A stretch of DNA of 64,000 bases from Myxococcota bacterium (GTDB taxonomy: Bacteria > Myxococcota_A > Polyangia > Polyangiales > Houyiibacteriaceae): contig JAHDCI010000001.1 in the NCBI GenBank assembly GCA_020629955.1, forward strand, positions 11,646 through 75,645, read 5' to 3'. The notes beneath the pieces are model-generated. The model was not told the origin of the DNA, searched no databases, and saw only the letters and a list, made by a program, of their open reading frames with translations. The stretch's first letter is position 1. Each line of letters opens with the position of its first letter. A program made the position numbers and the translations under genes. Positions 7,948 through 64,000 of the stretch are shown piece after piece.

Positions 7948-9732
7948 ATGCACGACCTCTCACCTCGTCTACCCATTATGAGCTTGAGTTCCCCAATGCT
8001 TCGTTCCCTTCTTTGTGCATCCCTTGTTCTTGCGATGGCGTGTGGCGGCTCGCCCCGGCGCGTGCGCCCCAACGGACAAGGGCAACAAATCACTGGTCCT
8101 GTCGGCGGGACCCAAGTCACGGGTCCCTCTGCTCCGACGGGCGCTGTGGGCACCCCGCGTGAACGCCTTGAGCGTGTCGAAGCCTTCATGACCCAAAACG
8201 GCTACAACCGAGTGGGCCCCGCGATTCACAACAACAACGCGATGCAGGGTTCGTTGATCGCCTACGCTGTCGATCCCCAGCCGGGCAACTGCTACGTCGC
8301 CGTGGCCGTCGCTACAGAGCAAACCGATCTCAATCTCTTTGTTCTCGACCCAGCGGGCCAAGGCCTCAACCACGACGTCCTCGCGAATGAAAGCCCTTGG
8401 GTGCAGGTCTGTCCAACGACCCCTGGGCGTCATATCGTGCGCCTTCAGATGCTGCGTGGAAACGGTGAATTCTACTACGCGCTCTACCAGGGGCCGCAGG
8501 GTAGCTCACCTCAACTCGCGTCCGTGCTGAGCGGGGGAAGCCCCGCCGCCATCAACGAAGCGCCTGTGGCCCAAATGGCCGAAATCGACGCAGAAACCCA
8601 GGGACGCCTGATCCAGATGGACGAGGCGCTGAGCCGGTCGCGATATCGTCGCGTCGGCGAGCCGGAAGGGATGATTCGCGCCGCAAACGAAGACTATATT
8701 CGCGAGCTTAATCTACAGCAGGGCGTTTGCTACGCCTTTGCGTCGCTCGGCGGTCCGGGCACGCGAGACACGGATTTGACGCTTCGCAATCAGCAAGGCG
8801 AGACCTTGGAACAGGACCGCGGCACGGACATCGATGGCCGGATTCAGTTTTGCCCAACGCAGGGCGGACGCTACTCGCTCGTTGCCAACCTCTACAGCGG
8901 AAATGGACCGGTCTTCGTGGCGGGCTGGGTACAGGAAGCCCAGTCGGCGCAGCCCCAAAACAACAATGGTCAGGTGATGGGCAATACCTCCGAGGGAGAG
9001 ACCGTCGATCAGCGCTATGCGCTTACGGATGCCGATATGCAGGCGCGCGGCTACGAGAGCTACGGAGAGCCCGTACGCGGCAGCCTCGGCTCCGGCCAAA
9101 ACCGTGAGTTCCCAATCGAACTCGAAGGTGGCAAGTGCTACGCGATCGTCGCGATTGGTGCGAGCTCCGTACGCAACGTCGACCTCGCACTGCATCAGGG
9201 GAACCGTTACCTCGACCGCGAGGTCGCCACGGACTCCCGCGCCATCGTGCGCGTCTGTGCGGAAGACACCGGCACATACTCGATGCAGATGACAATGGCC
9301 GAAGGGGAAGGCGCATTCATCTATCACGCCTACCGATGGCCACGCGGAACCCGCGGTCCCTTCGGGCTCGCCGGCCTCATCTACGTTCGGCTCGGAGAGG
9401 TCTCCGGGCTCCTCGGGGTGGATGGCTACGAACCCGATCTGAACATCGACCCAGATCGCGGGAGCCTCCGCCGCGAGGGGATGAGCGCGTCCCATCGTGT
9501 GCCTCTCCAGCAAGGGCAGTGCGTCGCGATCGCCGTCGTCGGCGGCGATGGTGTCCAGGATCTGAATGCGCAGCTCTCCCGTGGCGGTCAGCTCGTCGCC
9601 GGCGATGACTCGCGCAACGCCTCTCCGACCATTCGATACTGCGCGGAGGCGGCGGGCAACTACGACCTCCAGGTACAGGCCGCGGCCGGACAGGGAGACT
9701 ACTTCTATCAGGTCTTCTCCCGAGGACAGTAG
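7948..9732 (+). CDS. Secreted lipoprotein built of four tandem beta-sandwich-like repeats of about 120-130 aa (pre-peptidase C-terminal/PPC-like pattern)
   Basis: It has a signal peptide and lipobox (LVLAMAC GGS). Four internal repeats each contain G-x-C-(Y/V)-x-(V/F/I)-(A/V)...D(L/T)(N/D)L...(V/F/Y)C....G.Y pairs: GNCYVAVAVA, GVCYAFASLG, GKCYAIVAIG, GQCVAIAVVG. Confidence 0.7.
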   Translation: MHDLSPRLPIMSLSSPMLRSLLCASLVLAMACGGSPRRVRPNGQGQQITGPVGGTQVTGPSAPTGAVGTPRERLERVEAFMTQNGYNRVGPAIHNNNAMQGSLIAYAVDPQPGNCYVAVAVATEQTDLNLFVLDPAGQGLNHDVLANESPWVQVCPTTPGRHIVRLQMLRGNGEFYYALYQGPQGSSPQLASVLSGGSPAAINEAPVAQMAEIDAETQGRLIQMDEALSRSRYRRVGEPEGMIRAANEDYIRELNLQQGVCYAFASLGGPGTRDTDLTLRNQQGETLEQDRGTDIDGRIQFCPTQGGRYSLVANLYSGNGPVFVAGWVQEAQSAQPQNNNGQVMGNTSEGETVDQRYALTDADMQARGYESYGEPVRGSLGSGQNREFPIELEGGKCYAIVAIGASSVRNVDLALHQGNRYLDREVATDSRAIVRVCAEDTGTYSMQMTMAEGEGAFIYHAYRWPRGTRGPFGLAGLIYVRLGEVSGLLGVDGYEPDLNIDPDRGSLRREGMSASHRVPLQQGQCVAIAVVGGDGVQDLNAQLSRGGQLVAGDDSRNASPTIRYCAEAAGNYDLQVQAAAGQGDYFYQVFSRGQ

Positions 9733-9892
9733 CAGGCTGGCGAAAAACGTCCGAAACCGCTTCGCGGCATTTTCACGCACTCAAACGCCATCCAATTTTC
9801 GCCAGGTATGTGGAATACGAGTCCAAAAATCGGACGCATCTGCGTACGCCAAAATCCAACGAATCACAATCGGCCCTTTTTCACCACCCTGC
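9732..9892 (+). mobile_element. MITE-like 161-bp element with terminal inverted repeats, copy 1
   Basis: The 5' end GCAGGCTGGCGAAAAACGTCCGAA matches the reverse complement of the 3' end GCAGGGTGGTGAAAAAGGGCCGAT at 19/24 positions. TA dinucleotides flank both ends (9730-9731 and 9893-9894). Homologous copies lie at 29454-29609 (-) and 63151-63311 (+). Confidence 0.6.
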
Positions 9893-10139
9893 TAGGCTCG
9901 GAACCCGTCTCTTTCGCGTTTTCGCGCCCCGGCACCAGTCATGGTTCGGGCGCGCGGCAACGCTATGATTTTACTTCACTTTCATCTATCATCGAAGCAC
10001 CTCGCACCTCTTCGCGAGGGTGTGATTACTGGACATCGACCAAGACCGACCCCAATTGGGTAGATAAGCCTGAGCTCGGAGAAATCCGCCGACCGATCGG
10101 CGCTCTCTCCTCCCGCGAAGGCCCGATCAAGGAACACGA

Positions 10140-10561: not shown

Positions 10562-11695
10562 CTATCGAGCGAAGGTCATCCGGAATTCGAGGGTTCGCGG
10601 CGGAGGCGGAGGAAGACGCCAGCCTCGGCTCCGCTGCGTCAAACAATTCGCGATGCCAGAATCCCCGGTCGTGTTTCGCGCGGGCCGCGCCGACGCGATG
10701 CGGCCATCCTCATGGAGAACAAACGCCATCACAATACTTCCACTGAGACCGGGAACGCGCGCGTCCGCTTGATCGAAACAAGTCTGAACGTCGCCCACAT
10801 AGCGAGTCGCCACCAGGCGGCGCGCGGAGCTCGCATACATCACTCCCGTCTGTGACGAGCCGACGCCGCCAGCAGGGGGCACGGTCGGTGCCGGCGGAGG
10901 TTCACTCGTCGGCTCCGGTGCGGGGCGCCCTTGCCAAGGGGGAGGAGGCGCGCTCGGCTCGGGTGCGGGGCGCTGAGCCGGCTGCAGCGGGGGAGAAGGT
11001 TCGACCCCTTGGGGCCGCGTGGGTCGTGGGCTCACCTGCCGCCGGGAAGTCATTCGCGTGGGGCGCATGGAAGAGACCCGTGGCTCCTGAATTTCCGTGG
11101 GGGAAGGCTCCTGAACATCCTCCGAAGATGTATCGTCAGCGCCCGGCGGAACCACTCCTTCGGGCAGGACCGATTGCTCTTCTCTTGCTGGGAGTTCGTG
11201 CATCGCTTCATGTTCTGCCGCCGGCGCGATCTCGCCGATCATCACCGGCGCCCCAGGCTCCGCATTCCCCACGACCCTAGGTTCGGCCTCCGAGAGAAAC
11301 CACATTCCGGCGGCACCAAGCGCGACGAGCCCCGCCGCGGCGAGGCCCATCCACGTGTAGACCTTTTTCGCACTCGTAATGCCTGCCATCGCCATCGTGC
11401 GATTGCCGACAGCACGCGACGAACGAACGGCGACCATCTGCTGAGACATCCTCGCGGCACGCGCAGGATCCGCGAACTCCTCGACCGGCCCAATCCCCAA
11501 GGGTGAGGGCTGAGGCCGTATCGTTTTGGTATGCGCGATGAGTCCGCTCCCGCACTGTCCACAAAAGCGCGCGTAGCCAGGATTCTCCGTGCCGCAACAA
11601 TCACATCTCACGCCTGTTATCATGCCCGTCTTTGAACGCCCCGTCACTACAGGTGTCCCGCGGCCGCCGCGTTGCCCTTCAGCCCAGTTCCTCAT
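10562..11695 (-). CDS. Zinc-ribbon / TM / Pro-rich / TonB-C-like (AgmX/PglI C-terminal domain) envelope protein, GltJ/AgmX-like architecture
   Basis: It has an N-terminal CDCCGTENPGYARFCGQCG zinc ribbon, one TM helix (WMGLAAAGLVALGAAGMWFL), a Pro-rich spacer, and a C-terminal two-Cys domain (VQTCF...GSIVMAFVLHEDGRI...IANCL...WRLPPPP). The start is ambiguous: the ATG at 11695 has GAGGAA-N9 upstream, and the alternative ATG is at 11623. Confidence 0.75.
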   Translation of the reverse strand: MRNWAEGQRGGRGTPVVTGRSKTGMITGVRCDCCGTENPGYARFCGQCGSGLIAHTKTIRPQPSPLGIGPVEEFADPARAARMSQQMVAVRSSRAVGNRTMAMAGITSAKKVYTWMGLAAAGLVALGAAGMWFLSEAEPRVVGNAEPGAPVMIGEIAPAAEHEAMHELPAREEQSVLPEGVVPPGADDTSSEDVQEPSPTEIQEPRVSSMRPTRMTSRRQVSPRPTRPQGVEPSPPLQPAQRPAPEPSAPPPPWQGRPAPEPTSEPPPAPTVPPAGGVGSSQTGVMYASSARRLVATRYVGDVQTCFDQADARVPGLSGSIVMAFVLHEDGRIASARPARNTTGDSGIANCLTQRSRGWRLPPPPPRTLEFRMTFAR

Positions 11696-11769
11696 CGAGG
11701 GCAGTTCCTCATCGAGGGCAGTTCCTCATCGAGGGCAGTTCCTCATCGAGGGCAGCTCCTCATCGAGCG
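11685..11769. repeat. 17-bp tandem repeat x5 (CAGTTCCTCATCGAGGG; the last unit is degenerate)
   Basis: Direct reading shows units starting at 11685, 11702, 11719, 11736 and 11753. Each unit contains the small inverted repeat CCTC-ATC-GAGG. Confidence 0.9.
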
Positions 11770-11840
11770 CGGTTCTCATCCAGCCCACGTTCTGATCCAG
11801 CGGGGCTTCGCGTCCTCGTGCTATTCTGTCCCCACTTGAG

Positions 11841-12662
11841 ATGGGATGGTCGAGTACAGCGAAGTGGCCGAGTCGAGGGTCCGAAGACGGTCCCTTTCGA
11901 TCGGACGGGCTGATCGCAGAAACGAAGCGATTCCGGCCAGTCCGCGCCGGAGGAAGCGGTTACTTTAAACCCACTCGGATTGCACTCTCAGAGCGCTGTC
12001 TATTTGCCGAAGTCCAGAACGAAATCCGCATGGTCGAGCGCCACCGCGTGAGCGGGTTCGCAACGCATCGGGGCTTCGTCTGGATTGCAATCACGGATGC
12101 AGAGTTCCTGCTAGTTCCCGCGCGATCCACCAAGCGATTTCAGAAGGCCTTAGGCCAGCCGAGTGAGGCGTCCAATACCGAGCCCGCCGGCGCAATCTGG
12201 ATTCTACTCGGATTGCTTGCGATGGCCGGAGGCGTGGCGTGGAGAATCTTCGCGGACACTCAAGGCCTCGGGTCGGCGATCGCCCAGTTGCTACTCTGCC
12301 TAAGTCTTCCGATCGCCCTGCTCTTTCAACCCCGGTGGTCAAGCTATTCGAGATGGGGCGTGCTGTCCTATCGAGGAATCCTCCGTGGGGACCCGCTCGC
12401 GATCCCTCGCTCGGAGATACGAAGCATCACGCAACAAGCGGAGGTCGACCGAGTAAACGTGCCGATTTACCTCGTCAAAACGAAGCAGGGGCAGACCGTT
12501 CTCGGACTCGGAACCCGCAAAGACCTCCTCGATCCAAGTCTCGAAACACTGGGAGAAAAGGCGGCAAAGGTTCTGGATGTCCCCTTCACGCCCTCGTTCT
12601 CCCCGCGCCCCGATCCCCCGTCGAACGTTCACCGCGACATCCACACCGACATCCATCGGTGA
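11841..12662 (+). CDS. Hypothetical membrane protein (two central TM helices)
   Basis: The long ORF has coding-like composition. The TM segments are AGAIWILLGLLAMAGGVAWRIF and AIAQLLLCLSLPIALLF. I recognised no motif, and the start is uncertain. Confidence 0.5.
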   Translation: MGWSSTAKWPSRGSEDGPFRSDGLIAETKRFRPVRAGGSGYFKPTRIALSERCLFAEVQNEIRMVERHRVSGFATHRGFVWIAITDAEFLLVPARSTKRFQKALGQPSEASNTEPAGAIWILLGLLAMAGGVAWRIFADTQGLGSAIAQLLLCLSLPIALLFQPRWSSYSRWGVLSYRGILRGDPLAIPRSEIRSITQQAEVDRVNVPIYLVKTKQGQTVLGLGTRKDLLDPSLETLGEKAAKVLDVPFTPSFSPRPDPPSNVHRDIHTDIHR

Positions 12663-29203: not shown

Positions 29204-29453
29204 CAGGATTCGCGCCCTCGCACAATCCTTCGCAATCGCAAGGAAAGTTCTCTTCGCTCACATCCGGCCTGCATTCTCGCTCAGACAACTTCCCTTACGT
29301 TTGCGAAATCTTGCACGACCATCACGAGGCTCCGGATGAAGAAGACTGCTTATCTCTGGCGAAGCTTCAAACGCCCAAAAACAACTTCGCGATTTTTTTC
29401 CGTGCGCACCCCAATTATCCAGCGGCTTCACAGATGGGAACGTTTGGATGCGA

Positions 29454-29609
29454 GCAGGGTGGTGAAAAAGGGCCGATGTTGGTTCGTTGGATTCTTCGTG
29501 CCCAGATGCATCCGATTTTCGGAACGTGACGGGAACTGGGTGGCGCTGGATGGCGTTTGAGTGGGTGAAAATACCGCGAAGCGGTTTCGGACGTTTTTCA
29601 CCAGCCTGC
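29454..29609 (-). mobile_element. MITE-like TIR element, copy 2 (156 bp, inverted orientation)
   Basis: Its reverse complement aligns with copies 1 and 3. The first 63 nt differ from copy 1 at 3 positions, the central 35 nt or so are divergent, and the TIRs match 20/24. Confidence 0.6.
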
Positions 29610-29616
29610 CAGACGC

Positions 29617-29648
29617 AAAAACGCGCTGGTTCCAAGGAACCAACGCGT
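29617..29648 (-). terminator. Rho-independent terminator of rplC
   Basis: On the minus strand, a 13-bp stem with one mismatch (ACGCGTTGGTTCC / GGAACCAGCGCGT) is followed by TTTTT. It lies 23 nt after the rplC stop. Confidence 0.65.
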
Positions 29649-29670
29649 TGAATGGTTGCTCGCTGGTGGT

Positions 29671-30330
29671 TTAAGCGTTGGCCTTCTTGGCCTTCTTCGC
29701 CGCCTGGCGAATCGTGACGACGCCGCCGCGCGGTCCGGGGACGCTGCCCTTCACCATCACGATGCCTTCTTCGTCCATGACCTTGACGACCTTCAAGCTC
29801 ATCACGGTGACGCGCTTGTTGCCGTGCTGGCCGGCCATCTTCTTGCCCTTGAAAACACGACCGGGCGTCATGTTCATACCGATGGAGCCGCCGTGACGCT
29901 GGTACTCGTGCGCACCGTGCGTGGCCTTGTAGCCGGCAAAGTTGTGGCGCTTCATGACACCGGTGAAGCCGCGACCCTTCGAGGTGGCGCAGACGTCAAC
30001 GAAACCGCCTTCTTCGAAGATCTCGCTCGCCTTCAGCTGCTGACCGACTTCGTACCCGTCGACCTTCTCGGCCGGGAGGCGGAACTCACGAACAACTTCC
30101 GGGACGCCCGCTTCAACGTGGGAGAACTGACCGGCGACGGGACGCGTCGTGGTCTTCTTCACACCGAATCCAAGCTGGATCGCGGAGTAGCCGTGCTTCG
30201 CGACGGTGCGCTTGCCGACGACGGTGCAGGGGCCCGCTTCGACCACGGTGACGCGACGAATCTCGCCGTCGTCCGTGAAAACCTGGGTGTTGCCGACTTT
30301 TTTGCCGATGAGTCCGAGTGACGTGTTCAC
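29671..30330 (-). CDS. rplC: 50S ribosomal protein L3
   Basis: The translation GLIGKKVGNTQVF...TSKGRGFTGVMKRHNF...GSIG.N.TPGRVFKGKKMAGQHGNKRVTV is a canonical full-length L3. Confidence 0.95.
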   Translation of the reverse strand: MNTSLGLIGKKVGNTQVFTDDGEIRRVTVVEAGPCTVVGKRTVAKHGYSAIQLGFGVKKTTTRPVAGQFSHVEAGVPEVVREFRLPAEKVDGYEVGQQLKASEIFEEGGFVDVCATSKGRGFTGVMKRHNFAGYKATHGAHEYQRHGGSIGMNMTPGRVFKGKKMAGQHGNKRVTVMSLKVVKVMDEEGIVMVKGSVPGPRGGVVTIRQAAKKAKKANA

Positions 30331-32314: not shown

Positions 32315-32355
32315 CCTATTCTTTGGCGAGCGGGCGTCCGAAATGCAAGGAGAGT

Positions 32356-32865
32356 TCAGAAGGTATTCGGCGGACGCGTGACCAGCTCACAGATCGCGAT
32401 GAAGTCTTCCCGGTTAATAAGATTCACCTCGTCCAATCGCTCGGAGAGCGCCTGCAGCAGCGCTTGCAGATCCGCGCTTGCGATATGGTCATTGGGGCAG
32501 AGACGCACCGTGTCGCGCCCGGCGGTCTCCACGATGTACACCAAGTGCTCATCGTAAGAGCGATCGATCTCGCAACGTACCAGCGGGAAGTAGAGCTCTG
32601 TATCCCGCGCGCTCGGGAATGAGAGCGCTTCGCCTCGAATGACAATGCTACGCCTCGAAGCTGGGAAGTCCCGGAGGTATTTGTAAACGAGCCCGATGCC
32701 GCCAATCGCGAAGAGGGAGCCAAAACACACCCCGGCACCCTGGCCACCCGCGATCATGAAGCCGCCGACACAAACGAGAGGGACGAAACAGCCTGTCGGC
32801 ACTATCCACGACGGGCGCAGCACGTACGCTCGGGGCTCCGGCTCCGCTTGCAGATCTGAACTCAA
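32356..32865 (-). CDS. Small two-TM protein with a cytoplasmic domain of about 100 aa, paralog P1 (unknown family; C-terminus ...ICELVTRPPNTF)
   Basis: It has a TTG start. Two N-terminal TM helices are followed by a soluble domain. It is paralogous to 32957..33460 and, more distantly, to 33457..33999. Confidence 0.65.
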   Translation of the reverse strand: MSSDLQAEPEPRAYVLRPSWIVPTGCFVPLVCVGGFMIAGGQGAGVCFGSLFAIGGIGLVYKYLRDFPASRRSIVIRGEALSFPSARDTELYFPLVRCEIDRSYDEHLVYIVETAGRDTVRLCPNDHIASADLQALLQALSERLDEVNLINREDFIAICELVTRPPNTF

Positions 32866-32956
32866 AACGTCTGGAACCTTTCAGAGAGTCGGAGAGAACG
32901 CACGAAAGAACGCCCTTTCTCCTTTGCCGAGCGGGCGCCCGTAGCGCAAGGAGAGT

Positions 32957-33460
32957 TCAGAAGGTATTCGGCGGACGCGTGACCAGCTCGCAGATCGCGA
33001 CGAAGTCTTCCCGAGTAATGAATCGCTCCTCTTCGATGCGCCGTTCCATCCGCGTCAGGAGTTCCTTCAAACGTGACCGCGCCATGGTGGAGTTCGGCGT
33101 AATCGAAACTTGCTGGCGGCCGGCGGTTTCGATGACGAACTGAAACCCAGAATCTCCGGCGTAGCGCTCACATCCAACGAAGGGAAAGTAGAGCTCGACG
33201 CCCTCTGCCCCAGGCAACGATGCCGATATCTCCGAGACAACGATCCTTCGCTTTCGCGGGAGGTATTCCGACACGAAGCGGAAAGTGAGATACGCCCCGC
33301 AGAGCAGAGCCGGTCCCGCAAAGCAGAGAATGCCTTCCGCGAACCAGGCCAAAAACACAGAGGCCGCGATCAGGCCGAAGGTGACAAACGCCGGCAATGT
33401 CCACGACGAGCGCAGGACATACGTTCGGGTCGCTTCTTCTTTGGAAACATCTGAACTCAA
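32957..33460 (-). CDS. Small two-TM protein, paralog P2 (C-terminus ...ICELVTRPPNTF)
   Basis: Its TTG start overlaps the TGA stop of P3 (TTGA). It has the same architecture as P1. Confidence 0.65.
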   Translation of the reverse strand: MSSDVSKEEATRTYVLRSSWTLPAFVTFGLIAASVFLAWFAEGILCFAGPALLCGAYLTFRFVSEYLPRKRRIVVSEISASLPGAEGVELYFPFVGCERYAGDSGFQFVIETAGRQQVSITPNSTMARSRLKELLTRMERRIEEERFITREDFVAICELVTRPPNTF

Positions 33461-33999
33461 AACGTCTGTGGCCTTTTCGAAAGCCGCGACTCGAGGATCC
33501 CTTTGACGGCATCGTAGTCGAGCGCCTCTCCGCTATCGAAGAACGCCTGCAGCTCCGCGAAGATTCCCCGTAGCGAGTGACAGGTCGAACTAGCGGAGAC
33601 CTCCGCTTCTCCGACGGGTCCCGTCATGAGAATGGTCTTGCGGGTTCCAAAGCCTTCGACTTCGATGCTCTTGATCGGGAGGGAAATCGACGCGTTAACC
33701 TCCTTCGGAAACTCAAGCGCCTTTTCGGTAAGTCTCACCTCCCGCTCTCTCGGGAGCGATCGATAAAGCCCCATCATGGCGAAGTGAGCGCCGGAGATCG
33801 CGAGCGGGAGCGATGCGATTAGCAGCGCGGCACTCCAAGGCATTGCAAGGTCGCGCACATCCCAGAAGCCCCAACCCACCAACGGCAAAATGGCGAGACC
33901 TGAGAGGCAAATACGGTCGAGCGGCAGAGGGAGTAAAAACGTCTTCGCCTTCGCCGCTCTCTTCGGCATCTCCCCCTTCGTCGCGTCCCCTCCTCGCAT
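33457..33999 (-). CDS. Small two/three-TM protein, distant paralog P3 (C-terminus ...SKRPQTF)
   Basis: It has the same size class, N-terminal TM helices, and a C-terminal RP-x-TF end. It is translationally coupled to P2. Confidence 0.6.
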   Translation of the reverse strand: MRGGDATKGEMPKRAAKAKTFLLPLPLDRICLSGLAILPLVGWGFWDVRDLAMPWSAALLIASLPLAISGAHFAMMGLYRSLPREREVRLTEKALEFPKEVNASISLPIKSIEVEGFGTRKTILMTGPVGEAEVSASSTCHSLRGIFAELQAFFDSGEALDYDAVKGILESRLSKRPQTF

Positions 34000-38526: not shown

Positions 38527-38986
38527 GCGAAGGCAGGTCGCACCGAGCCTCGTTTTGCTTGCAACGTTCGCCCTCGGTGGGCTCTTCGGTGCAGGCATCT
38601 CGCGTTTTGCCCAGCAGTCCGTGCACCGGGAGCCGCGCAGGGCGCGAAACCCGTTCCCCGTTCATGAGCTCGACCTCAGCGCCGAGCAGCGAGAACGGAT
38701 TCGCGAAATCATGGAATCACATCGACCGGAAGTGCAGGCGATCTTACGGGAAAGCCGCCCAGCCATCGAAGCGATCAACGAGCAGGTGCTGCGCGAGATC
38801 CGCGAGGTCCTCACCGATGCGCAATCTCGCGAGCTTGATCGCCTTCGCTCTCTGCGACCTCCTCCCGGACCACACGGGGGCCCGCCACCGCACGGCGGCC
38901 CACCACCGCACGGCGGCCCGCCACCGCACGGCGGCCCGCCACCGCACGGCGGCCCACCACCGCACGGCGGCCCGTCACCCTTCTGA
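38519..38986 (+). CDS. Periplasmic Spy/CpxP/ZraP-like (LTxxQ-type) protein with a C-terminal (HGGPPP)x6 tail
   Basis: The ATG at 38519 overlaps the anti-sigma stop. The signal anchor is VAPSLVLLATFALGGLFGAG. LSAEQRERIREIM and LTDAQSRELDRL are LTxxQ-like motifs. Six His-Gly-Gly-Pro-Pro-Pro units sit at the C-terminus. Confidence 0.7.
   Translation: MTKRRQVAPSLVLLATFALGGLFGAGISRFAQQSVHREPRRARNPFPVHELDLSAEQRERIREIMESHRPEVQAILRESRPAIEAINEQVLREIREVLTDAQSRELDRLRSLRPPPGPHGGPPPHGGPPPHGGPPPHGGPPPHGGPPPHGGPSPF
38873..38980 (+). repeat. 18-nt in-frame tandem repeat x6 (CACGGCGGCCCRCCACCG) encoding HGGPPP
   Basis: Direct reading shows units starting at 38873, 38891, 38909, 38927, 38945 and 38963. Confidence 0.9.
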
Positions 38987-54623: not shown

Positions 54624-57245
54624 TTACGAAGCCTCCCACCAGGCGTCGACGGGTGCTGCAGGCTGCGACGGCGTCTCTTCGCCCTCACCACCTTCGGTGG
54701 ATTCGCCACTATCGGCAGGCGGTTGTGATGGCGTGTTGCCTTCCGAGGGCGCGGCCTCGCCGTTTTGCTGAAGCCACCAAGGCTCGCCTGTTTCTCCGCC
54801 GTTGCCTTCTCCTGGCTGCGTCTGTCCCGGTTGCGCTTGTCCAGGCTGGGTCTGCGCGGGCTGGGTCTGTCCAGGCTGAGTCTGTGCAGGCTGCGTCTGC
54901 GTGGGTTGCGCGGGCTGAGTTTGTGCGGGCTGCGCGGCGTGACGGACTTCCCACCACGGCCGGCCCACAAAGCCCGCCGCATTTCCGAGAGACTCGGCCC
55001 GCGACCACCAGTGCGCGTAAGCGGGCTGGTTGCTTCGGGGCGTATTCCCAGTGCTGCTTCGGAGACGAATCGAGAAACTCGCGCGCTGCCGGCGCTGCTG
55101 AATCCCGGGGAAGCGAAGCTCCGCGATCGTTGGCGAGAGGCACTCGACAAACTCCGGCGTATTCGGCGCGTAGCGGAACTCCGCGGTGTTGCCCTCTTGC
55201 TCGATGATAAAGGCAAAGCGAACCGTCCCAAGCTCTGGGTTGCGTTCCATTTCGCCTTCAACGCAGCCACGGAGAGCGTCGGTCTGCGCCATAAAGACCT
55301 CATTGATCTGCTCTTGCGTCAGACGCTCCGGACGCGCAGCGCGTTCTTCGGCCTCGGCTTCCGCGGCCGCCAGCGCTTCCGCTTCAACGCGCGCAGCCTC
55401 TTCGTTTTCGAGGCGCGTCGTCTCCGCCTGGAAGATCGCGGTAATCGATTCCTTCAAAGGCGCGATCGTGCGGCCGCGGTCGGCAAAGGTCTGAAGCGAC
55501 GCACGCCCCTCGTCTCCGCCATGCCGGAAGATTCCTTCGGCCGCAATCGTGAGCGGGTCCATGTTCTCCGCAAAGGTGGAGTCCGCGTGATAGAGGGTGA
55601 GGAATTGCTGAAGCGGACCGACCACGGACTCGTCACCAAGCTCAACAATCGCGCGAAGAACGAGCGCGAGCTGGTCCGCTGGTGTCTCGTGATCAAAGAG
55701 GTGCGCGATAAGTTGGCTCAGCGCCTCGCTCTTCTCTTGTTCGAGCAGCGCCGGCACCAGAAGCGTGAAAGGTGGCGAGCGTGTCTCATCGAGGTAGTCG
55801 TAAGAAGTGTTTAATGCCGCGACCAGGTAGTCAGCGCCTGGTTCGCGCGTGCGCAGCGACTCACGGATCGCGTCGCGAAGCGCGCCCGGGGTTGAACGTT
55901 GCGCATAGAGATCGAGCAGCCCCCGCGTGATCTCTGGATCCTCCATCCCGGCAAGTTGACCGATGGCATACGATCGCGCCGCAACGAGGCGGTTGTCAGG
56001 ATCGCCGGCAAGCTCGAGGAGCGACGTCGAGAGATCCCTCGCTTCGCCAGGGTTCGACTCGGGAGCAAATCCGTTCACGTCAAACCCTGCGGACGCAAGC
56101 TCGAGCTCCGCGCCCCCAGTCCAAGCCGAGTTGCCCGTCGACGCATCGAGGAAGTTCGCCCGGCCGCGCTCTCCGAGCGTGAAAAGACCACCACTCAGGA
56201 CCTGAGCCCGGATCACATCCTGCTCGAGGATCCGCGCCCATTCCATCTCGCCAGTCGTCGCGTCATACGCAAAAACATAACGGTAATAGACGAGATAGAC
56301 GCGGCTGGACATGAGCGCGAGTCCATTCTCCCCGGGAGCCGGCGCCACGTAGAAGCGGATCCGTCCCCGCGCGGAGCGAGTACCTGGCGTGGGAATGAAG
56401 ACATCGTCTTCGATCGCCGGCTCACGTGGCGCGCCGGTGACCGGATTGCCAACGTACGTGGATTCGCTCTGACGCCCCGTCGCCGAACTCACATCGAGAC
56501 GGTATATGCCATTGGAGCCGTAGTACACGCCGCTCGGTTCTTCACGCATCCACGCGAGAACGTCGTCGGTCGTCCGAATACGCGTAACTTCATTCCCGGT
56601 CTGCAGGTTGAGGATCGCGATATTCTGCTTGTCCCACGGAATCATCGCATAGCCGCCGCGCGCGACGGGACGCCCGAAGATGCCGGCGAGTTCGTGGTCC
56701 CAAATCGCTCGACCCGAACGCGCATCCACTGCGAACGCATGGCCCACGCGAGTCGCTCCGCCCGAACCGCCGATCGAGAGCACGTAGAGAAGCGTATTGC
56801 CATCCCGCGATGCGCCGACATAGGCGAGCGTATCAAGCTCCTTCTGCCAAAGCGTTTGTCCCGTTTCGGTGGACACCGCGACAATATTCTCACGCGTGCT
56901 GACCATGGTGATATCGCCGAGCACCTCGGGACGCGTCTGTACGTCGAGATTTGTGCGCCACATCTCCGCACCATCGAGCCCAAACGCGACCAACGCGCGC
57001 TCCCCAGCTTCGAGCGAGTGGGTGGACGCGACGATCAGCGGCTGCCCCGAGCTATTGCCGGGTGCGTCCGCAACTTCTCCACCCGCGGCACCGACGATCG
57101 GGCCCAACGTCTCAGCGTCGTTGTCCGGGAACCGAGGGTCGAACGCCGGACGTAGCGCGACCGTGTAGCAGCCCGAAAGAAGGACGAGAACGAAGCTGAG
57201 GGCGAGCAGGGAACTCGCAGGGAGGTTTGTGTTCGAGAACTTCAT
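54624..57245 (-). CDS. 873-aa lipoprotein: PQQ-like beta-propeller + HEAT-like helical region + AgmX/PglI-type TonB-C-like domain + Q/T/P-rich repeat tail
   Basis: The lipobox is LVLLSGC YT. Propeller-type blades are present (GQTLWQKEL..., GRAIWDHEL..., GEMEWARIL...). A two-Cys C-terminal domain follows (LRGCVEGEM...VRFAFIIEQEGN...FVECL...LRFPG). The tail carries QPAQTQPGQTQ repeats and ends WWEAS. Confidence 0.75.
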   Translation of the reverse strand: MKFSNTNLPASSLLALSFVLVLLSGCYTVALRPAFDPRFPDNDAETLGPIVGAAGGEVADAPGNSSGQPLIVASTHSLEAGERALVAFGLDGAEMWRTNLDVQTRPEVLGDITMVSTRENIVAVSTETGQTLWQKELDTLAYVGASRDGNTLLYVLSIGGSGGATRVGHAFAVDARSGRAIWDHELAGIFGRPVARGGYAMIPWDKQNIAILNLQTGNEVTRIRTTDDVLAWMREEPSGVYYGSNGIYRLDVSSATGRQSESTYVGNPVTGAPREPAIEDDVFIPTPGTRSARGRIRFYVAPAPGENGLALMSSRVYLVYYRYVFAYDATTGEMEWARILEQDVIRAQVLSGGLFTLGERGRANFLDASTGNSAWTGGAELELASAGFDVNGFAPESNPGEARDLSTSLLELAGDPDNRLVAARSYAIGQLAGMEDPEITRGLLDLYAQRSTPGALRDAIRESLRTREPGADYLVAALNTSYDYLDETRSPPFTLLVPALLEQEKSEALSQLIAHLFDHETPADQLALVLRAIVELGDESVVGPLQQFLTLYHADSTFAENMDPLTIAAEGIFRHGGDEGRASLQTFADRGRTIAPLKESITAIFQAETTRLENEEAARVEAEALAAAEAEAEERAARPERLTQEQINEVFMAQTDALRGCVEGEMERNPELGTVRFAFIIEQEGNTAEFRYAPNTPEFVECLSPTIAELRFPGIQQRRQRASFSIRLRSSTGNTPRSNQPAYAHWWSRAESLGNAAGFVGRPWWEVRHAAQPAQTQPAQPTQTQPAQTQPGQTQPAQTQPGQAQPGQTQPGEGNGGETGEPWWLQQNGEAAPSEGNTPSQPPADSGESTEGGEGEETPSQPAAPVDAWWEAS
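54810..54938 (-). repeat. Coding low-complexity repeat (about 15-nt units encoding QTQPA/QTQPG)
   Basis: Direct reading of CTGGGTCTG(C/T)(G/C)C(G/A)GG-type units gives the translation AAQPAQTQPAQPTQTQPAQTQPGQTQPAQTQPGQAQPGQTQPG. Confidence 0.8.
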
Positions 57246-61586: not shown

Positions 61587-62384
61587 GTGAATCAGTCCTA
61601 CTTTCGTTCAGATGAGCTAGCGCCCAACGCCGAAGGTCGATGGGAGGTCGAGACCACTCCCTTTTCCCGCGGCCCATGGCATCCCGATTTTTGCCACGCG
61701 GGACCACCATCGGCGCTGATGGTTCGGGCGGCCCAAGAGCTTGGGAGTTTTCCGTCGGTGCAGCGCGCAACATTCGACGTGCTCCGCCCGATCCCCCTAG
61801 GAGCGCTGATCGTCACGGTCCGAAAGCAGAGCGATTCCCGTAGCCTCGAGCGCTGGGAGGTCGAACTCTTGAGCGCCGAGCGCGTTTGCATGCGAGGCAC
61901 GATTCTCCTCGCCTCATCAAATGAAACCGAGGGGCTCCCCGATCCGGCTCCGTCGCCTCTACCGAATGACTCGGCTCCGCTGGAATTCCCGTTCAACACG
62001 GCGGACGAGAGCTATATGCACGTCGTTGAACTGCGCGCCGCGCGGGGAAAAATCGGGGACGGGGATATGTTCTGCTGGCTACGTCCCAGCGCGAGCTTAC
62101 TCGCCGGTGAATCCACGCTTCGGCCCACCGACCGCGTCTTCGTGTGCGCGGACGCATCCAGCGGCGTGGGCGCGCGCCTCGACTGGAAGACCCACTCCTT
62201 CGTAAACGCGGATCTCAGTGTCTCGCTCTTTCGCGAACCGGAGGGAGATTGGCTCGGTCTTGAGGCGAAGACCTACGCGGGCGCCGGTGGCCGAGGGCTC
62301 ACCAGCACGACACTCTTCGATGCGAGAGGCCCGGTCGGAGCGTGCATGCAAGGATTGGCGATTCGGAGAGTCCGCTCGAAGTAG
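61587..62384 (+). CDS. Acyl-CoA thioesterase-like (double hot-dog, TesB/4HBT_3-like) protein
   Basis: The motifs CHAGPPSALMVRAA and the C-terminal FVNADLSVSLFREPEGDWLGLEA...LFDARGPVGACMQGL match the family layout. The start is placed at an in-frame GTG, since there is no ATG near the domain start; it remains uncertain. Confidence 0.55.
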   Translation: MNQSYFRSDELAPNAEGRWEVETTPFSRGPWHPDFCHAGPPSALMVRAAQELGSFPSVQRATFDVLRPIPLGALIVTVRKQSDSRSLERWEVELLSAERVCMRGTILLASSNETEGLPDPAPSPLPNDSAPLEFPFNTADESYMHVVELRAARGKIGDGDMFCWLRPSASLLAGESTLRPTDRVFVCADASSGVGARLDWKTHSFVNADLSVSLFREPEGDWLGLEAKTYAGAGGRGLTSTTLFDARGPVGACMQGLAIRRVRSK

Positions 62385-62455
62385 GCCATCGCGGCTTACC
62401 ATCGAGGCGTCCTGAAATCGCGACAGCGAGCACAGGCGTGCGCTATCCTGGTGAA

Positions 62456-63151
62456 GTGAAACGCTTCCTTTTCATTCTCACGCTGTTCGTACCTCTTGCA
62501 GCTGGCTGCGGCGACGACGACGTGCGGCGATGCAACTCCCCCGCAGATTGTGACGGGGATCGATGCTTTAACGGACTGTGTGTCCCCGACGAAGCGCTCC
62601 CCGACGCTTCGGCGGAGGACAGCGGACAAGACGCCGGGATGGACGATGCCGCAGTCAACGATGCCGCAGTCGACGCGAGCGCAGATACTGGCGGGGGAGG
62701 AGATGCGGCAATCGACGATTCTGGCACCCAAGACGCCAACACGGAGGACGCCAGCACCGAAGACGCCGGCGCCGGGGACGCCGCAATGGACGCGGAAGTC
62801 GACGCAGGTCGAGACGACGCCGCACCCACCTGTCCGAACATTCTCGGAACGTGGAGCGTCTGCGATCATCCTTCGTGCGCTGCGGCACAATGCTATGCCG
62901 ACGAAGTCGAGATCATCACCGATTCGCGCAGCCCGTTTGAGTGCGGCTTCCGCGTCACGGCGGATGGACGTCCAGCCGGACCGAACGTTGCCGGCGCGTT
63001 CGGCACCGACGATGGCCGAATGTTCGAGGAAAACGGCATTCTGGTCGATGACCAAAGCTGTTCGTCGATTTCGCGACCGGAAGACGACGCACTCGAAATC
63101 ACCAGCTGCGGCGGGGGACGTGGCTGCGGCGTTCGTCTCGTTCGGTTCTAG
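62456..63151 (+). CDS. Acidic Cys-containing lipoprotein (hypothetical)
   Basis: The GTG start gives VKRFLFILTLFVPLAAGC GDDD (lipobox). A D/A-rich low-complexity linker follows, then a C-terminal domain with conserved Cys. Confidence 0.6.
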   Translation: MKRFLFILTLFVPLAAGCGDDDVRRCNSPADCDGDRCFNGLCVPDEALPDASAEDSGQDAGMDDAAVNDAAVDASADTGGGGDAAIDDSGTQDANTEDASTEDAGAGDAAMDAEVDAGRDDAAPTCPNILGTWSVCDHPSCAAAQCYADEVEIITDSRSPFECGFRVTADGRPAGPNVAGAFGTDDGRMFEENGILVDDQSCSSISRPEDDALEITSCGGGRGCGVRLVRF

Positions 63152-63311
63152 CGGGCTCGTGAAAAACGCCCGAAACCGCTTCGCGGTATTTTCACGGACT
63201 CAAACGCCATCCAACTCTCGCCACGTATGGACAACACGAGTCCAATCATCGGACGCATCTGTGCACGCCAACATCCAACGAATCAAAATCGGCCCTTTTC
63301 CTACAGCTGAC
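63151..63311 (+). mobile_element. MITE-like TIR element, copy 3 (161 bp)
   Basis: It aligns with copy 1 over its full length, and both are 161 bp. TA flanks lie at 63149-63150 and 63312-63313. The right TIR is degenerate. Confidence 0.6.
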
Positions 63312-63313
63312 TA

Positions 63314-63970
63314 ATGCTTCCAAGAATCCTTTCGACGATCGCGATCACGGCGCTCTTGCTCCTCTCCGGCTGCAGTGAGAACGCGGAGGCAAGCGCCAGC
63401 CAAAGCAGCGCAAACCATCCGGCGCAGGTCCACATCAACCTCGACGATCCGCAAACGCTCTTTACTTGGTACGACGAAGACGGGCCGCATATCACGGAAT
63501 CGCGAGAAACAATTCCGGAGGCCCACCGCGCCCGCGTCCGAGTCGATTCCCTCGCCCTCTCCCCGGAGGACCGAGATCCGGGTGTTGTCTACGTGGTTGA
63601 TCTTCGCGTCGCGGAGCCTGAGATCGAAGCGGTCGACCGAGAAGCATTTGATGCCCTCCTCGCTCCCGAAGAGCCTGCGGCGACAGAGCTTCCCACCGAA
63701 CCACAGGAGCTCGCTCAGAATTCGAGCGATGTCACCATTTTCGGAGCGTCCTGGTGCGGAGCCTGTCGGCAGGCCAAGGCGTATCTGCGGTCCCGCGATA
63801 TCGATTTTGTCGAACGCGATGTCGAAGAGGAGCCCGGCGCTCGAGCGGAAATGCAGCGACGGGCGCGGGAAGCCGGCGTTCGGGTAAGTGGCATCCCCGT
63901 GATCGATTTCCGCGGGACCATCTTAAGCGGGTTTAACCGCTCCGCGATCGATCGACTGGCCGGTTTATGA
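63314..63970 (+). CDS. Lipoprotein with a C-terminal glutaredoxin-like (CxxC thioredoxin-fold) domain
   Basis: The lipobox is ALLLLSGC SEN. The C-terminal VTIFGASWCGACRQAKAYLRSRDIDFVERDVEEEP...GIPVIDFRGTILSGF matches the glutaredoxin family pattern. Confidence 0.75.
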   Translation: MLPRILSTIAITALLLLSGCSENAEASASQSSANHPAQVHINLDDPQTLFTWYDEDGPHITESRETIPEAHRARVRVDSLALSPEDRDPGVVYVVDLRVAEPEIEAVDREAFDALLAPEEPAATELPTEPQELAQNSSDVTIFGASWCGACRQAKAYLRSRDIDFVERDVEEEPGARAEMQRRAREAGVRVSGIPVIDFRGTILSGFNRSAIDRLAGL

Positions 63971-64000
63971 GCGTGTTGGACGGTCGTCTTTTCGGTGAAG

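What the first reader, a model, noticed from the sequence alone, without database searches (positions are those of the whole stretch)
63149..63316. MITE-like copy 3 splits a former TAATG stop/start overlap between an acidic lipoprotein gene and a glutaredoxin-like lipoprotein gene
Copy 3 is 161 bp, the same length as copy 1, and has TA on both sides. Removing the element and one TA gives ...GTT CGG TTC TAATG CTT..., which overlaps the upstream stop (TAA) with the ATG at 63314. This is the arrangement of a translationally coupled pair. After insertion the upstream gene ends in TAG (TA plus the first G of the element) and the two genes are 162 nt apart. This is an internally consistent footprint of a real insertion event. 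It also implies that the lipoprotein 62456..63151 and the periplasmic glutaredoxin-like lipoprotein 63314..63970 are a functional pair. The right TIR of this copy is degraded (about 14/23), which suggests an older or immobilised copy.
Basis: partly seen in the sequence, partly recalled or inferred. Interest (0 to 1): 0.6.

Follow-up and report, generated by a model that had tools for sequence, protein, structure and literature searches.

The report
Decayed IS5-type MITE between two genes
A 159-bp dead mini-transposon of the IS5 family most likely landed on the four bases where one gene's stop codon overlapped the next gene's start codon, leaving both genes intact; this is a tidy but ordinary insertion scar.

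Summary
Window 63151-63311 is one of three copies (76-84% identical) of a roughly 160-bp inverted-repeat element.

The new result is the element's family. Its terminal 16 nt (CAGGCTGGTGAAAAAC) are identical to the ends of IS5-family insertion sequences on Methylomonas and Methylocalor plasmids. Those and related ISs make 4-bp duplications (CTAG, ATAG, TTAA).

Read that way, copy 3 is 63152-63310, flanked by CTAG (63148-63151) and CTAA (63311-63314). The inferred pre-insertion junction is GGTT-CTAR-TGCTT, that is TAATG or TAGTG. Either gives a 1-nt stop/start overlap. The duplication then regenerated both the stop and the start.

No empty site exists in public data, so this remains a reconstruction.

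The "functional pair" claim is not supported. The upstream lipoprotein has no homologues, and six glutaredoxin-like orthologue loci have other neighbours.

Copy 3's inverted repeats are selectively degraded (10/44 versus 6/117 substitutions, p=0.002). In silico this leaves the start region unpaired.

Verdict: a new member of a known kind, of low to moderate interest.

The parts
63148..63151 (+). Left copy of the 4-bp target duplication, CTAG. Its TAG (63149-63151) is the present stop codon of the upstream gene.
   Evidence: Sequence. The 4-bp rule comes from IS relatives with the same ends: CTAG/CTAG, ATAG/ATAG and TTAA/TTAA.
63152..63310 (+). MITE copy 3, element proper (159 nt, 54% GC, no transposase ORF).
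   Evidence: Alignment with copies 1 and 2. No Rfam match even at E<=1.
63152..63172 (+). Left terminal inverted repeat of copy 3, CGGGCTCGTGAAAAACGCCCG. It has 3 copy-specific substitutions relative to the family consensus CAGGCTGGTGAAAAACGTCCG.
63290..63310 (+). Right terminal inverted repeat of copy 3, strongly degraded. It reads CGGCCCTTTTCCTACAGCTGA against the consensus CGGCCCTTTTTCACCACCCTG, with 7 copy-specific substitutions.
63311..63314 (+). Right copy of the target duplication, CTAA. Its last A (63314) is the first base of the downstream ATG.
   Evidence: Sequence. CTAR is rare in the window.
62456..63151 (+). Upstream gene: an acidic, Cys-rich predicted lipoprotein (231 aa). It starts VKRFLFILTLFVPLAAGC and contains Asp/Ala-rich 15-nt repeats. 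It has no homologues elsewhere.
   Evidence: ORF list. No Pfam or NCBIfam match. The only database hit is itself. Positive codon-usage score. Internal repeats.
63314..63970 (+). Downstream gene: a glutaredoxin-fold lipoprotein (218 aa). It has lipobox LLSGC and a CGAC active-site motif. It overlaps the following 4HBT thioesterase gene by ATGA.
   Evidence: Pfam PF00462, E=2.5e-12. Orthologue alignment. Gene calls on L001.
9729..9895 (+). MITE copy 1 with its flanks: GTAG (9729-9732, containing the stop codon of gene 7948-9732), element 9733-9891, CTAG (9892-9895).
29451..29612 (-). MITE copy 2 with its flanks: CTGG (29612-29609), element 29608-29455, CTCG (29454-29451). It has the best-preserved inverted repeats (20/23). 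It lies just after a terminator-like hairpin downstream of a ribosomal protein L3 gene.

Best explanation
Copy 3 is a fossil non-autonomous transposon (MITE) derived from an IS5-family insertion sequence.

**Mechanism**
- Inferred from relatives: a transposase supplied in trans made a staggered cut at a YTAR tetranucleotide and duplicated it.
- Inferred: the target here was the CTAR formed where the stop codon of the acidic lipoprotein gene overlapped the first base of the start codon of the glutaredoxin-like lipoprotein gene (...GGTT-CTAA-TGCTT..., or CTAG with a GTG start).
- Shown: all four bases are present on both sides. The left copy still supplies a stop (cTAG). The right copy still supplies the A of ATG.
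- Consequence: both proteins stayed intact, and only the 1-nt overlap was replaced by a 162-nt spacer. That is the likely reason the insertion was tolerated.

**After insertion**
- Shown: one base of the duplication mutated.
- Shown: both inverted repeats of this copy decayed far more than its interior.
- Inferred: the decay immobilised the element.
- Inferred from folding only: it also removed a long terminal hairpin that would otherwise pair the 20 nt in front of the downstream start codon.
For: **Repeat family**
- There are three dispersed copies with different flanks.
- Two independent short-read assemblies of the same organism break inside the element on both sides of this junction. That is expected of a multi-copy repeat.

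**Family assignment**
- The terminal 16-17 nt are identical, end to end, to both ends of 1356-bp IS5-family elements. These elements encode a 365-aa transposase with DUF772 and DDE_Tnp_1 domains.
- Six IS copies were examined. Five carry perfect 4-bp duplications: CTAG three times, ATAG once and TTAA once. One Methylocalor copy has unequal flanks, TTAT/CTAG.
- The YTAR target of IS5 is documented in PMC5009759.

**Flanks of the window copies**
- All three MITE copies have 3/4-matching tetranucleotide flanks of this type.
- CTAG is at 0.13 of its expected frequency in the window.

**Gene boundaries**
- The start codon is fixed by an upstream in-frame stop and by the orthologue alignment.
- Stop/start overlaps are common here: at least 10 ATGA-type and one TGATG in 64 kb.
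- Copy 1 sits in a stop codon in the same way.

**Decay of the repeats**
- Copy-3-specific substitutions are 10/44 in the inverted repeats versus 6/117 in the interior (p=0.002).
- Fold z-scores are -0.64 for copy 3, -2.2 for copy 1 and -4.0 for copy 2.
- Restoring consensus repeats in silico lowers the mean unpaired probability of positions -20 to -1 from 0.61 to 0.19.
Against: - No empty site or close relative exists in the searched data, so the pre-insertion junction is a reconstruction.
- The two duplication copies differ at 1 of 4 bases in every copy.
- The right boundary of copy 3 rests on conserved length and the CTAA, because its last 12 nt are only about 50% like the consensus.
- The BLAST hits that revealed the IS were individually weak (E=0.5-6). 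Their weight comes from falling exactly in register at IS termini.
- One of the six IS copies examined has unequal flanks.
- No cognate transposase is in the window, and none was shown in Myxococcota.
- Only three copies are available.
- The adaptive reading of the repeat decay is based on folding predictions alone.
Confidence: 0.78

Rival explanations
1. The element did insert here, but not into a stop/start overlap. It landed in a longer spacer or in the 3' end of the upstream gene. A later deletion or rearrangement at its right end then fused it to the glutaredoxin-like gene's start. On this view the TAATG reconstruction is an accident.
For: - The right end is the most degraded part of the element, with only about 7/14 matches over its last 14 nt.
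- The flanking tetranucleotides are not identical: CTAG versus CTAA.
- No empty site is available.
Against: - The element has exactly the length of copy 1, so nothing was deleted from it.
- A YTAR tetranucleotide sits exactly at both predicted boundaries, with a chance of about 1e-6.
- The downstream protein's N-terminus aligns with its orthologues, so no coding sequence was lost.
Confidence: 0.1
2. The repeat is a host-maintained functional element that sits after genes, such as a REP-like mRNA 3'-end stabiliser, a terminator or a small RNA. It is not a transposon relic, and its position after stop codons reflects that function.
For: - All three copies lie just downstream of a gene's 3' end and in the same orientation relative to it.
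- A 5' hairpin (GTGAAAA...TATTTTCAC around a CCGC-TTC-GCGG stem) is kept in all copies.
- Blocks of 16-17 nt are invariant among the copies.
Against: - The ends are identical to IS5-family IS termini and carry the same kind of flanking duplication.
- There is no Rfam match even at E<=1.
- Copy 3 folds no better than shuffled sequence, z=-0.64.
- Three copies in the same orientation has a chance probability of 0.25.
- Two of three copies at stop codons is unremarkable once only tolerable YTAR sites are counted: 9 at stops versus 27 intergenic.
- Being a transposon relic does not exclude a secondary function.
Confidence: 0.1
3. The two lipoprotein genes are a translationally coupled functional pair, for instance a Cys-rich periplasmic substrate and its thiol-disulfide oxidoreductase, and the insertion uncoupled them.
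For: - The genes are on the same strand and the reconstructed junction is a 1-nt overlap.
- Both proteins are predicted lipoproteins.
- The upstream protein has 12 cysteines after the lipid-anchor cysteine (counted by eye from the translation). The downstream protein has a CxxC glutaredoxin fold.
Against: - The upstream protein is an orphan.
- Six orthologous loci lack it. Four of them instead carry an unrelated, conserved small lipoprotein next to the glutaredoxin-like gene, divergently oriented in three.
- Stop/start overlaps are so common in this genome that one says little about shared function.
Confidence: 0.15

Closest known systems
IS5-family insertion sequence on Methylomonas sp. DH-1 plasmid NZ_CP014361.1, with close relatives in M. 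koyamae pLM6 and Candidatus Methylocalor cossyra. More distant relatives are ISPst12 of Pseudomonas and an Azotobacter IS.
   Same: - The terminal 16-17 nt, CAGGCTGGTGAAAAAC, are identical at both ends.
- The flanking 4-bp duplications are of the CTAG/NTAG/TTAA kind.
   Different: - The IS is 1356 bp and encodes a 365-aa DDE transposase. The window element is 159 bp with no ORF.
- Apart from about 16-27 nt at the ends there is no detectable similarity.
- The hosts are Gammaproteobacteria, not Myxococcota.
- It is not shown to be the actual parent.
Chunjie MITE of Geobacter uraniireducens Rf4 (Chen et al. 2008, Genetics 179:2291, known here through the review PMC10969869)
   Same: It is a bacterial MITE found inside an operon, with further copies in intergenic regions.
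   Different: - Chunjie is 178-235 bp, recently active, and has dozens of near-identical copies.
- The copy studied here is old and decayed, and sits precisely on a stop/start overlap.
- The original paper was not available, so its TIR, duplication and parent IS could not be compared.
Correia elements of Neisseria, together with ERIC and RUP elements (bacterial MITEs co-transcribed with neighbouring genes)
   Same: - They are small inverted-repeat elements that fold into long hairpins when transcribed.
- They are inserted close to gene ends, with TA in the target.
- They can alter the expression of neighbouring genes (review PMC10969869, and general knowledge).
   Different: - From my own knowledge, not tested here: Correia duplicates TA only.
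- Its promoter, IHF-binding and RNase III functions are experimentally shown.
- None of these features was found or testable here, and no sigma-70-like promoter was detected.
Tourist MITEs of eukaryotic PIF/Harbinger transposons
   Same: From my own knowledge, not tested here: PIF/Harbinger transposases are the eukaryotic relatives of IS5-family transposases, and their MITEs duplicate a TA-centred target (TTA/TAA).
   Different: - The duplication is 3 bp.
- The hosts are eukaryotes.
- This is an analogy in kind only.

Membership tests
IS5-family-derived MITE | Terminal inverted repeats that match those of an IS5-family insertion sequence | tested here: met
   - The family consensus left end matches 16-17/17 nt, and the right end 14/16 nt, to both ends of Methylomonas and Methylocalor IS5-family elements.
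- The matches are in register from the first base.
- The transposase has DUF772 and DDE_Tnp_1 domains.
IS5-family-derived MITE | Insertion at a YTAR-type tetranucleotide | tested here: met
   - Copy 3 is flanked by CTAG and CTAA.
- Copy 1 is flanked by GTAG and CTAG.
- Copy 2 is flanked by CTGG and CTCG.
- CTAR occurs only 69 times in 64 kb.
IS5-family-derived MITE | Perfect 4-bp direct duplication of the target | tested here: inconclusive
   - Each of the three copies has 3 of 4 bases identical between its two flanks.
- This is expected for copies that differ from one another by 16-24%, but it is not a perfect duplication.
IS5-family-derived MITE | Small size and no transposase gene | tested here: met
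   The copies are 154-159 nt. tblastn with the related transposase finds nothing in the window.
IS5-family-derived MITE | Several dispersed copies in one genome | tested here: met
   - There are three copies in 64 kb with unrelated flanks.
- Short-read contigs break inside the element.
IS5-family-derived MITE | Autonomous partner IS with the same ends in the same genome | not testable with these tools
   - Only 64 kb of the genome is visible.
- Exact patterns from the element found no other copy in the genome or metagenome collections.
- A degenerate terminal-repeat pattern gave only 17 chance-level single hits.
IS5-family-derived MITE | Evidence of mobility (an empty site) | not testable with these tools
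   - The nearest homologues of the flanking genes are at most 57% identical (about 50% over the full length) or absent.
- All three available assemblies of the organism carry the element at this junction.
IS630/Tc1-mariner-derived MITE (TA duplication; Stowaway- or Correia-like) | Exactly TA duplicated | tested here: inconclusive
   - Copies 1 and 3 have TA/TA. Copy 2 has TG/TC.
- A TA-only model cannot be separated from a 4-bp CTAG-type model on these three copies alone.
- IS relatives with ATAG and TTAA flanks favour 4 bp.
IS630/Tc1-mariner-derived MITE (TA duplication; Stowaway- or Correia-like) | Ends matching an IS630-family element | tested here: not met
   The only IS termini matched in the plasmid collection belong to IS5-family elements.
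Conserved, translationally coupled gene pair | Adjacency conserved in relatives | tested here: not met
   - Zero of six orthologous loci have the acidic lipoprotein.
- The protein has no homologues.
Conserved, translationally coupled gene pair | Stop/start overlap | tested here: inconclusive
   - It exists only in the reconstruction (TAATG or TAGTG).
- The present spacer is 162 nt.
Known structured RNA family | Match to an Rfam covariance model | tested here: not met
   - There was no match at gathering thresholds.
- There was none at E<=1 for copies 2 and 3.

The most novel reading that the evidence does not exclude
The selective decay of both inverted repeats of copy 3 may be adaptive rather than neutral. 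On this reading the fresh insertion placed a long terminal hairpin directly against the start codon of a gene that had relied on translational coupling, and mutations that melted the hairpin were selected to restore expression. More generally, in GC-rich genomes where YTAR is scarce, stop codons and stop/start overlaps may be a privileged 'scarless' landing niche for IS5-type MITEs, because the 4-bp duplication regenerates both signals.
Probability: 0.25. Interest if true: 0.4.

Novelty: new member of a known kind. Interest (0 to 1): 0.27.

Why it matters
- It names a previously undescribed MITE family in an uncultured myxobacterial lineage and ties it to a specific IS5 lineage.
- It corrects the duplication from 2 bp to 4 bp.
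- It shows why an insertion between two abutting genes can be harmless: the duplicated CTAR rebuilds the stop on one side and the start on the other.
- For annotation, it warns that the 162-nt gap is secondary, and that the neighbouring genes should not be assumed to be partners.
- It also explains why short-read assemblies of this organism break at this point.
- None of this changes what is known about MITEs in general.

Tried and rejected
**Searches for other copies**
- Two invariant exact patterns from the element found nothing: AAACCGCTTCGCGGNATTTTCAC in both the genome and metagenome collections, and ATCCAACGAANCANNATCGGCCCTTTT in the metagenome collection.
- A degenerate terminal-repeat pattern gave 17 single hits that match only the seed, which is chance level.
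- One of those hits, in Geobacillus, is a separate small inverted-repeat element with similar ends.

**First family idea**
- I first took the element for an IS630/Tc1-like MITE, because of the TA flanks and a remembered likeness to Tc1 ends.
- I dropped this when the ends matched IS5-family elements with 4-bp duplications.

**Empty-site test**
- It was not possible. There are no close relatives, and the upstream gene is an orphan.

**Tracing the parent IS**
- A search with the Methylomonas transposase returned over 8000 IS5-family proteins with almost no taxon labels, and none of those was myxobacterial. It did not help trace a myxobacterial parent.

**Expression signals**
- No sigma-70-like promoter was found in 62300-64000.
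- The only terminator-like site lies in the upstream gene's 5' end. The count is no higher than in shuffled sequence.

**Gene calling**
- A GC3-only gene caller failed on this genome.
- It was replaced by a codon-usage model.

**Literature**
- The Chunjie paper (PMC2516098) is not held.

Full report
**1. What is in the sequence**

The upstream ORF ends ...GTT CGG TTC TAG, with the TAG at 63149-63151. The downstream ORF starts with ATG at 63314, and 162 nt lie between them.

The block 63151-63311 (161 nt) is one of three copies of a repeat in the window:
- Copy 1 is 9732-9892 on the plus strand (161 nt).
- Copy 2 is 29454-29609 on the minus strand (156 nt).
- Pairwise identities are 76-84%, and a profile built from the three finds nothing else significant.

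The ends are inverted repeats:
- In copy 2, 20 of the first 23 positions match between the arms, and 29 of 40.

TA flanks copies 1 and 3 on both sides, while copy 2 has TG and TC. TA makes up 1.7% of dinucleotides in the window, so the flanks are far beyond chance. Every factual statement in the finding is correct.

**2. What family it is**

Exact patterns from the element found no other copies in the genome or metagenome collections. A degenerate end pattern gave only chance-level single hits.

A blastn of the family consensus against plasmids gave short, individually weak hits (E=0.5-6) to positions 1-27. Those hits fall exactly at the outer ends of annotated IS5-family elements:
- On Methylomonas sp. 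DH-1 plasmid NZ_CP014361.1 there are two 1356-bp copies.
- Each encodes a 365-aa transposase with DUF772 and DDE_Tnp_1 domains.
- Each is bounded at both ends by CAGGCTGGTGAAAAAC, the same 16 nt that begin the window element.

Six IS copies were examined for flanks:
- Methylomonas sp. DH-1: CTAG|IS|CTAG and ATAG|IS|ATAG.
- M. koyamae: CTAG/CTAG.
- ISPst12 of Pseudomonas putida: CTAG/CTAG.
- An Azotobacter relative: TTAA/TTAA.
- One Methylocalor copy: unequal flanks, TTAT/CTAG.

So this IS lineage duplicates 4 bp of the YTAR type. That agrees with what is published for IS5 (PMC5009759). Its ends are CAGG...CCTG.

Beyond the terminal 16 nt the similarity to the IS is modest. I do not claim a specific parent.

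**3. Re-reading the three copies with a 4-bp duplication**

| Copy | Left flank | Right flank | Note |
|---|---|---|---|
| 1 | GTAG | CTAG | The left TAG is the stop codon of gene 7948-9732 |
| 2 | CTGG | CTCG | |
| 3 | CTAG (63148-63151) | CTAA (63311-63314) | Element proper is 63152-63310 |

Each pair matches at 3 of 4 positions. That is reasonable for copies that have diverged 16-24% from one another.

CTAG occurs 29 times in 64 kb (0.13 of expectation) and CTAA 40 times. Two CTAR sites at exactly the two predicted boundaries has a probability of about 1e-6.

**4. The pre-insertion junction**

Removing the element and one duplication copy gives GGTT-CTAR-TGCTT:
- If R was A, the junction was TAATG, and the left copy later changed TAA to TAG. 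That is a silent change of stop codon.
- If R was G, the junction was TAGTG with a GTG start, and the right copy later changed it to ATG.

Either way the stop and the start shared one base.

The start at 63314 is secure:
- A TGA lies in frame two codons upstream.
- Eight orthologues align from the same N-terminus, with an invariant lipobox cysteine.

Overlapping stop/start junctions are common in this window. There are at least ten of the ATGA type and one TGATG. They include the junction between the glutaredoxin-like gene and the next gene.

The key point is that the 4-bp duplication rebuilt a stop on the left and the first base of the start on the right. Neither protein was altered.

This remains a reconstruction, because there is no empty site to compare. 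The best homologues of the glutaredoxin-like protein are about 50% identical. The upstream protein has none. All three available assemblies of the organism carry the element here, with short-read contigs breaking inside it.

**5. The "functional pair" claim**

- The downstream protein is a lipoprotein with a C-terminal glutaredoxin fold and a CGAC motif. It is widespread in Myxococcota.
- The upstream protein is an acidic, Cys-rich predicted lipoprotein. It contains Asp/Ala-rich 15-nt repeats and matches no family or homologue.
- In six orthologous loci the neighbour is never this protein.
- In four loci the neighbour is an unrelated but conserved small lipoprotein (motif NEARLFLDRYD). It is divergently oriented in three and co-directional in one, with a 32-nt gap. 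That family is absent from the window.

The pairing is therefore lineage-specific. A Cys-rich secreted protein next to a periplasmic thiol oxidoreductase is suggestive, but nothing more.

**6. Decay of copy 3 and a possible consequence**

- Substitutions unique to copy 3 number 10 in the 44 inverted-repeat positions and 6 in the 117 interior positions (Fisher p=0.002).
- Copies 1 and 2 show no such excess.
- As RNA, copies 1 and 2 fold end to end (-43 and -47 kcal/mol, z=-2.2 and -4.0). Copy 3 does not (z=-0.64), and its last 16 nt are unpaired.
- Putting consensus repeats back in silico lowers the mean unpaired probability of the 20 nt before the ATG from 0.61 to 0.19.

This fits either neutral immobilisation or selection to reopen the start region. 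It is an inference from folding only.

No promoter-like site was found, and terminator-like sites were no more frequent than in shuffled sequence. There was no Rfam match.

**7. Why stop codons**

Outside the element flanks the window has 131 YTAR sites: 95 in coding sequence, 27 intergenic and 9 in stop codons. If insertions inside genes are purged, stops make up a quarter of the tolerable sites. Two of three copies at stops then needs no special explanation.

**8. Comparison with what is known, and verdict**

Bacterial MITEs derived from IS elements are well known. They sit near gene ends, are co-transcribed and form hairpins. One of them, Chunjie, lies within an operon (review PMC10969869).

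This is a new MITE family in an uncultured myxobacterium and a neat example of a scarless insertion. It is not a new kind of element.

- The insertion footprint is supported, with the duplication corrected to 4 bp.
- The functional-pair inference is not supported.

Noticed in passing
window 9729-9895: MITE copy 1 also sits on a stop codon. The TAG of the PPC-domain protein gene 7948-9732 lies inside the left flank GTAG, with CTAG on the right. It is an independent insertion of the same kind.
   Followed up: partly
window 29620-30330: A ribosomal protein L3 gene (29671-30330, minus strand) stands alone between a TatD DNase gene and a Ser/Thr kinase gene, not in an S10-type operon. It is followed by a terminator-like hairpin (29620-29649) and a T-run. 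MITE copy 2 begins about 10 nt beyond the hairpin, just past the T-run.
   Followed up: partly
window 29356-29405: There is a weak profile match (E=0.22) to positions 6-49 of the MITE, about 50 nt from copy 2 and in the opposite orientation. It may be a remnant of a fourth copy, or chance.
   Followed up: no
window 11685-11780: A 17-nt tandem repeat (CAGTTCCTCATCGAGGG, 5.7 copies, 93% matches) starts at the 5' end of gene 10562-11695 (minus strand) and runs into the divergent spacer before gene 11841-12662.
   Followed up: no
window 38869-38979: An 18-nt tandem repeat (ACCGCACGGCGGCCCGCC, 6.2 copies, 92% matches). The period is divisible by three, so it is probably a hexapeptide repeat inside a gene.
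   Followed up: no
window 62643-62783: The acidic lipoprotein gene itself contains 15-nt tandem repeats that encode Asp/Ala-rich pentapeptides. This fits a fast-evolving linker and the protein's orphan status.
   Followed up: partly
window 32321-33486: Two adjacent minus-strand genes (32356-32865 and 32957-33460, 169 and 167 aa, no Pfam match) share 82-84% identical stretches about 600 nt apart. They look like a tandem gene duplication.
   Followed up: no
window 54801-54937: A cluster of 15/30/45-nt tandem repeats lies inside the large minus-strand gene 54624-57245.
   Followed up: no
L009 1508-1651 (Geobacillus thermocatenulatus NZ_NEWK01000001.1): A roughly 140-bp element has inverted ends CTAGAAGGCCGGTGA...TCACCAGCCTTCTAG. 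Its right end (AATCGGCCGTTTTTCACCAGCC) resembles that of the window MITE. It may be a MITE of a related IS5 lineage in a Firmicute.
   Followed up: partly
L003 2835-3314, L004 4448-4903, L030 2115-2606, L031 2552-2968: In other Myxococcota the glutaredoxin-like lipoprotein gene is usually next to a conserved small lipoprotein of unknown function (motif NEARLFLDRYD, 42-80% identical among loci). That family has no match in the window.
   Followed up: partly
L025 2500-2530 (Candidatus Methylocalor cossyra plasmid 2): A solitary IS end (CTAG|CAGGCTGGTGAAAAACGCCCG) has no matching second end within 2.5 kb. It could be a truncated IS or the end of another short derivative.
   Followed up: no
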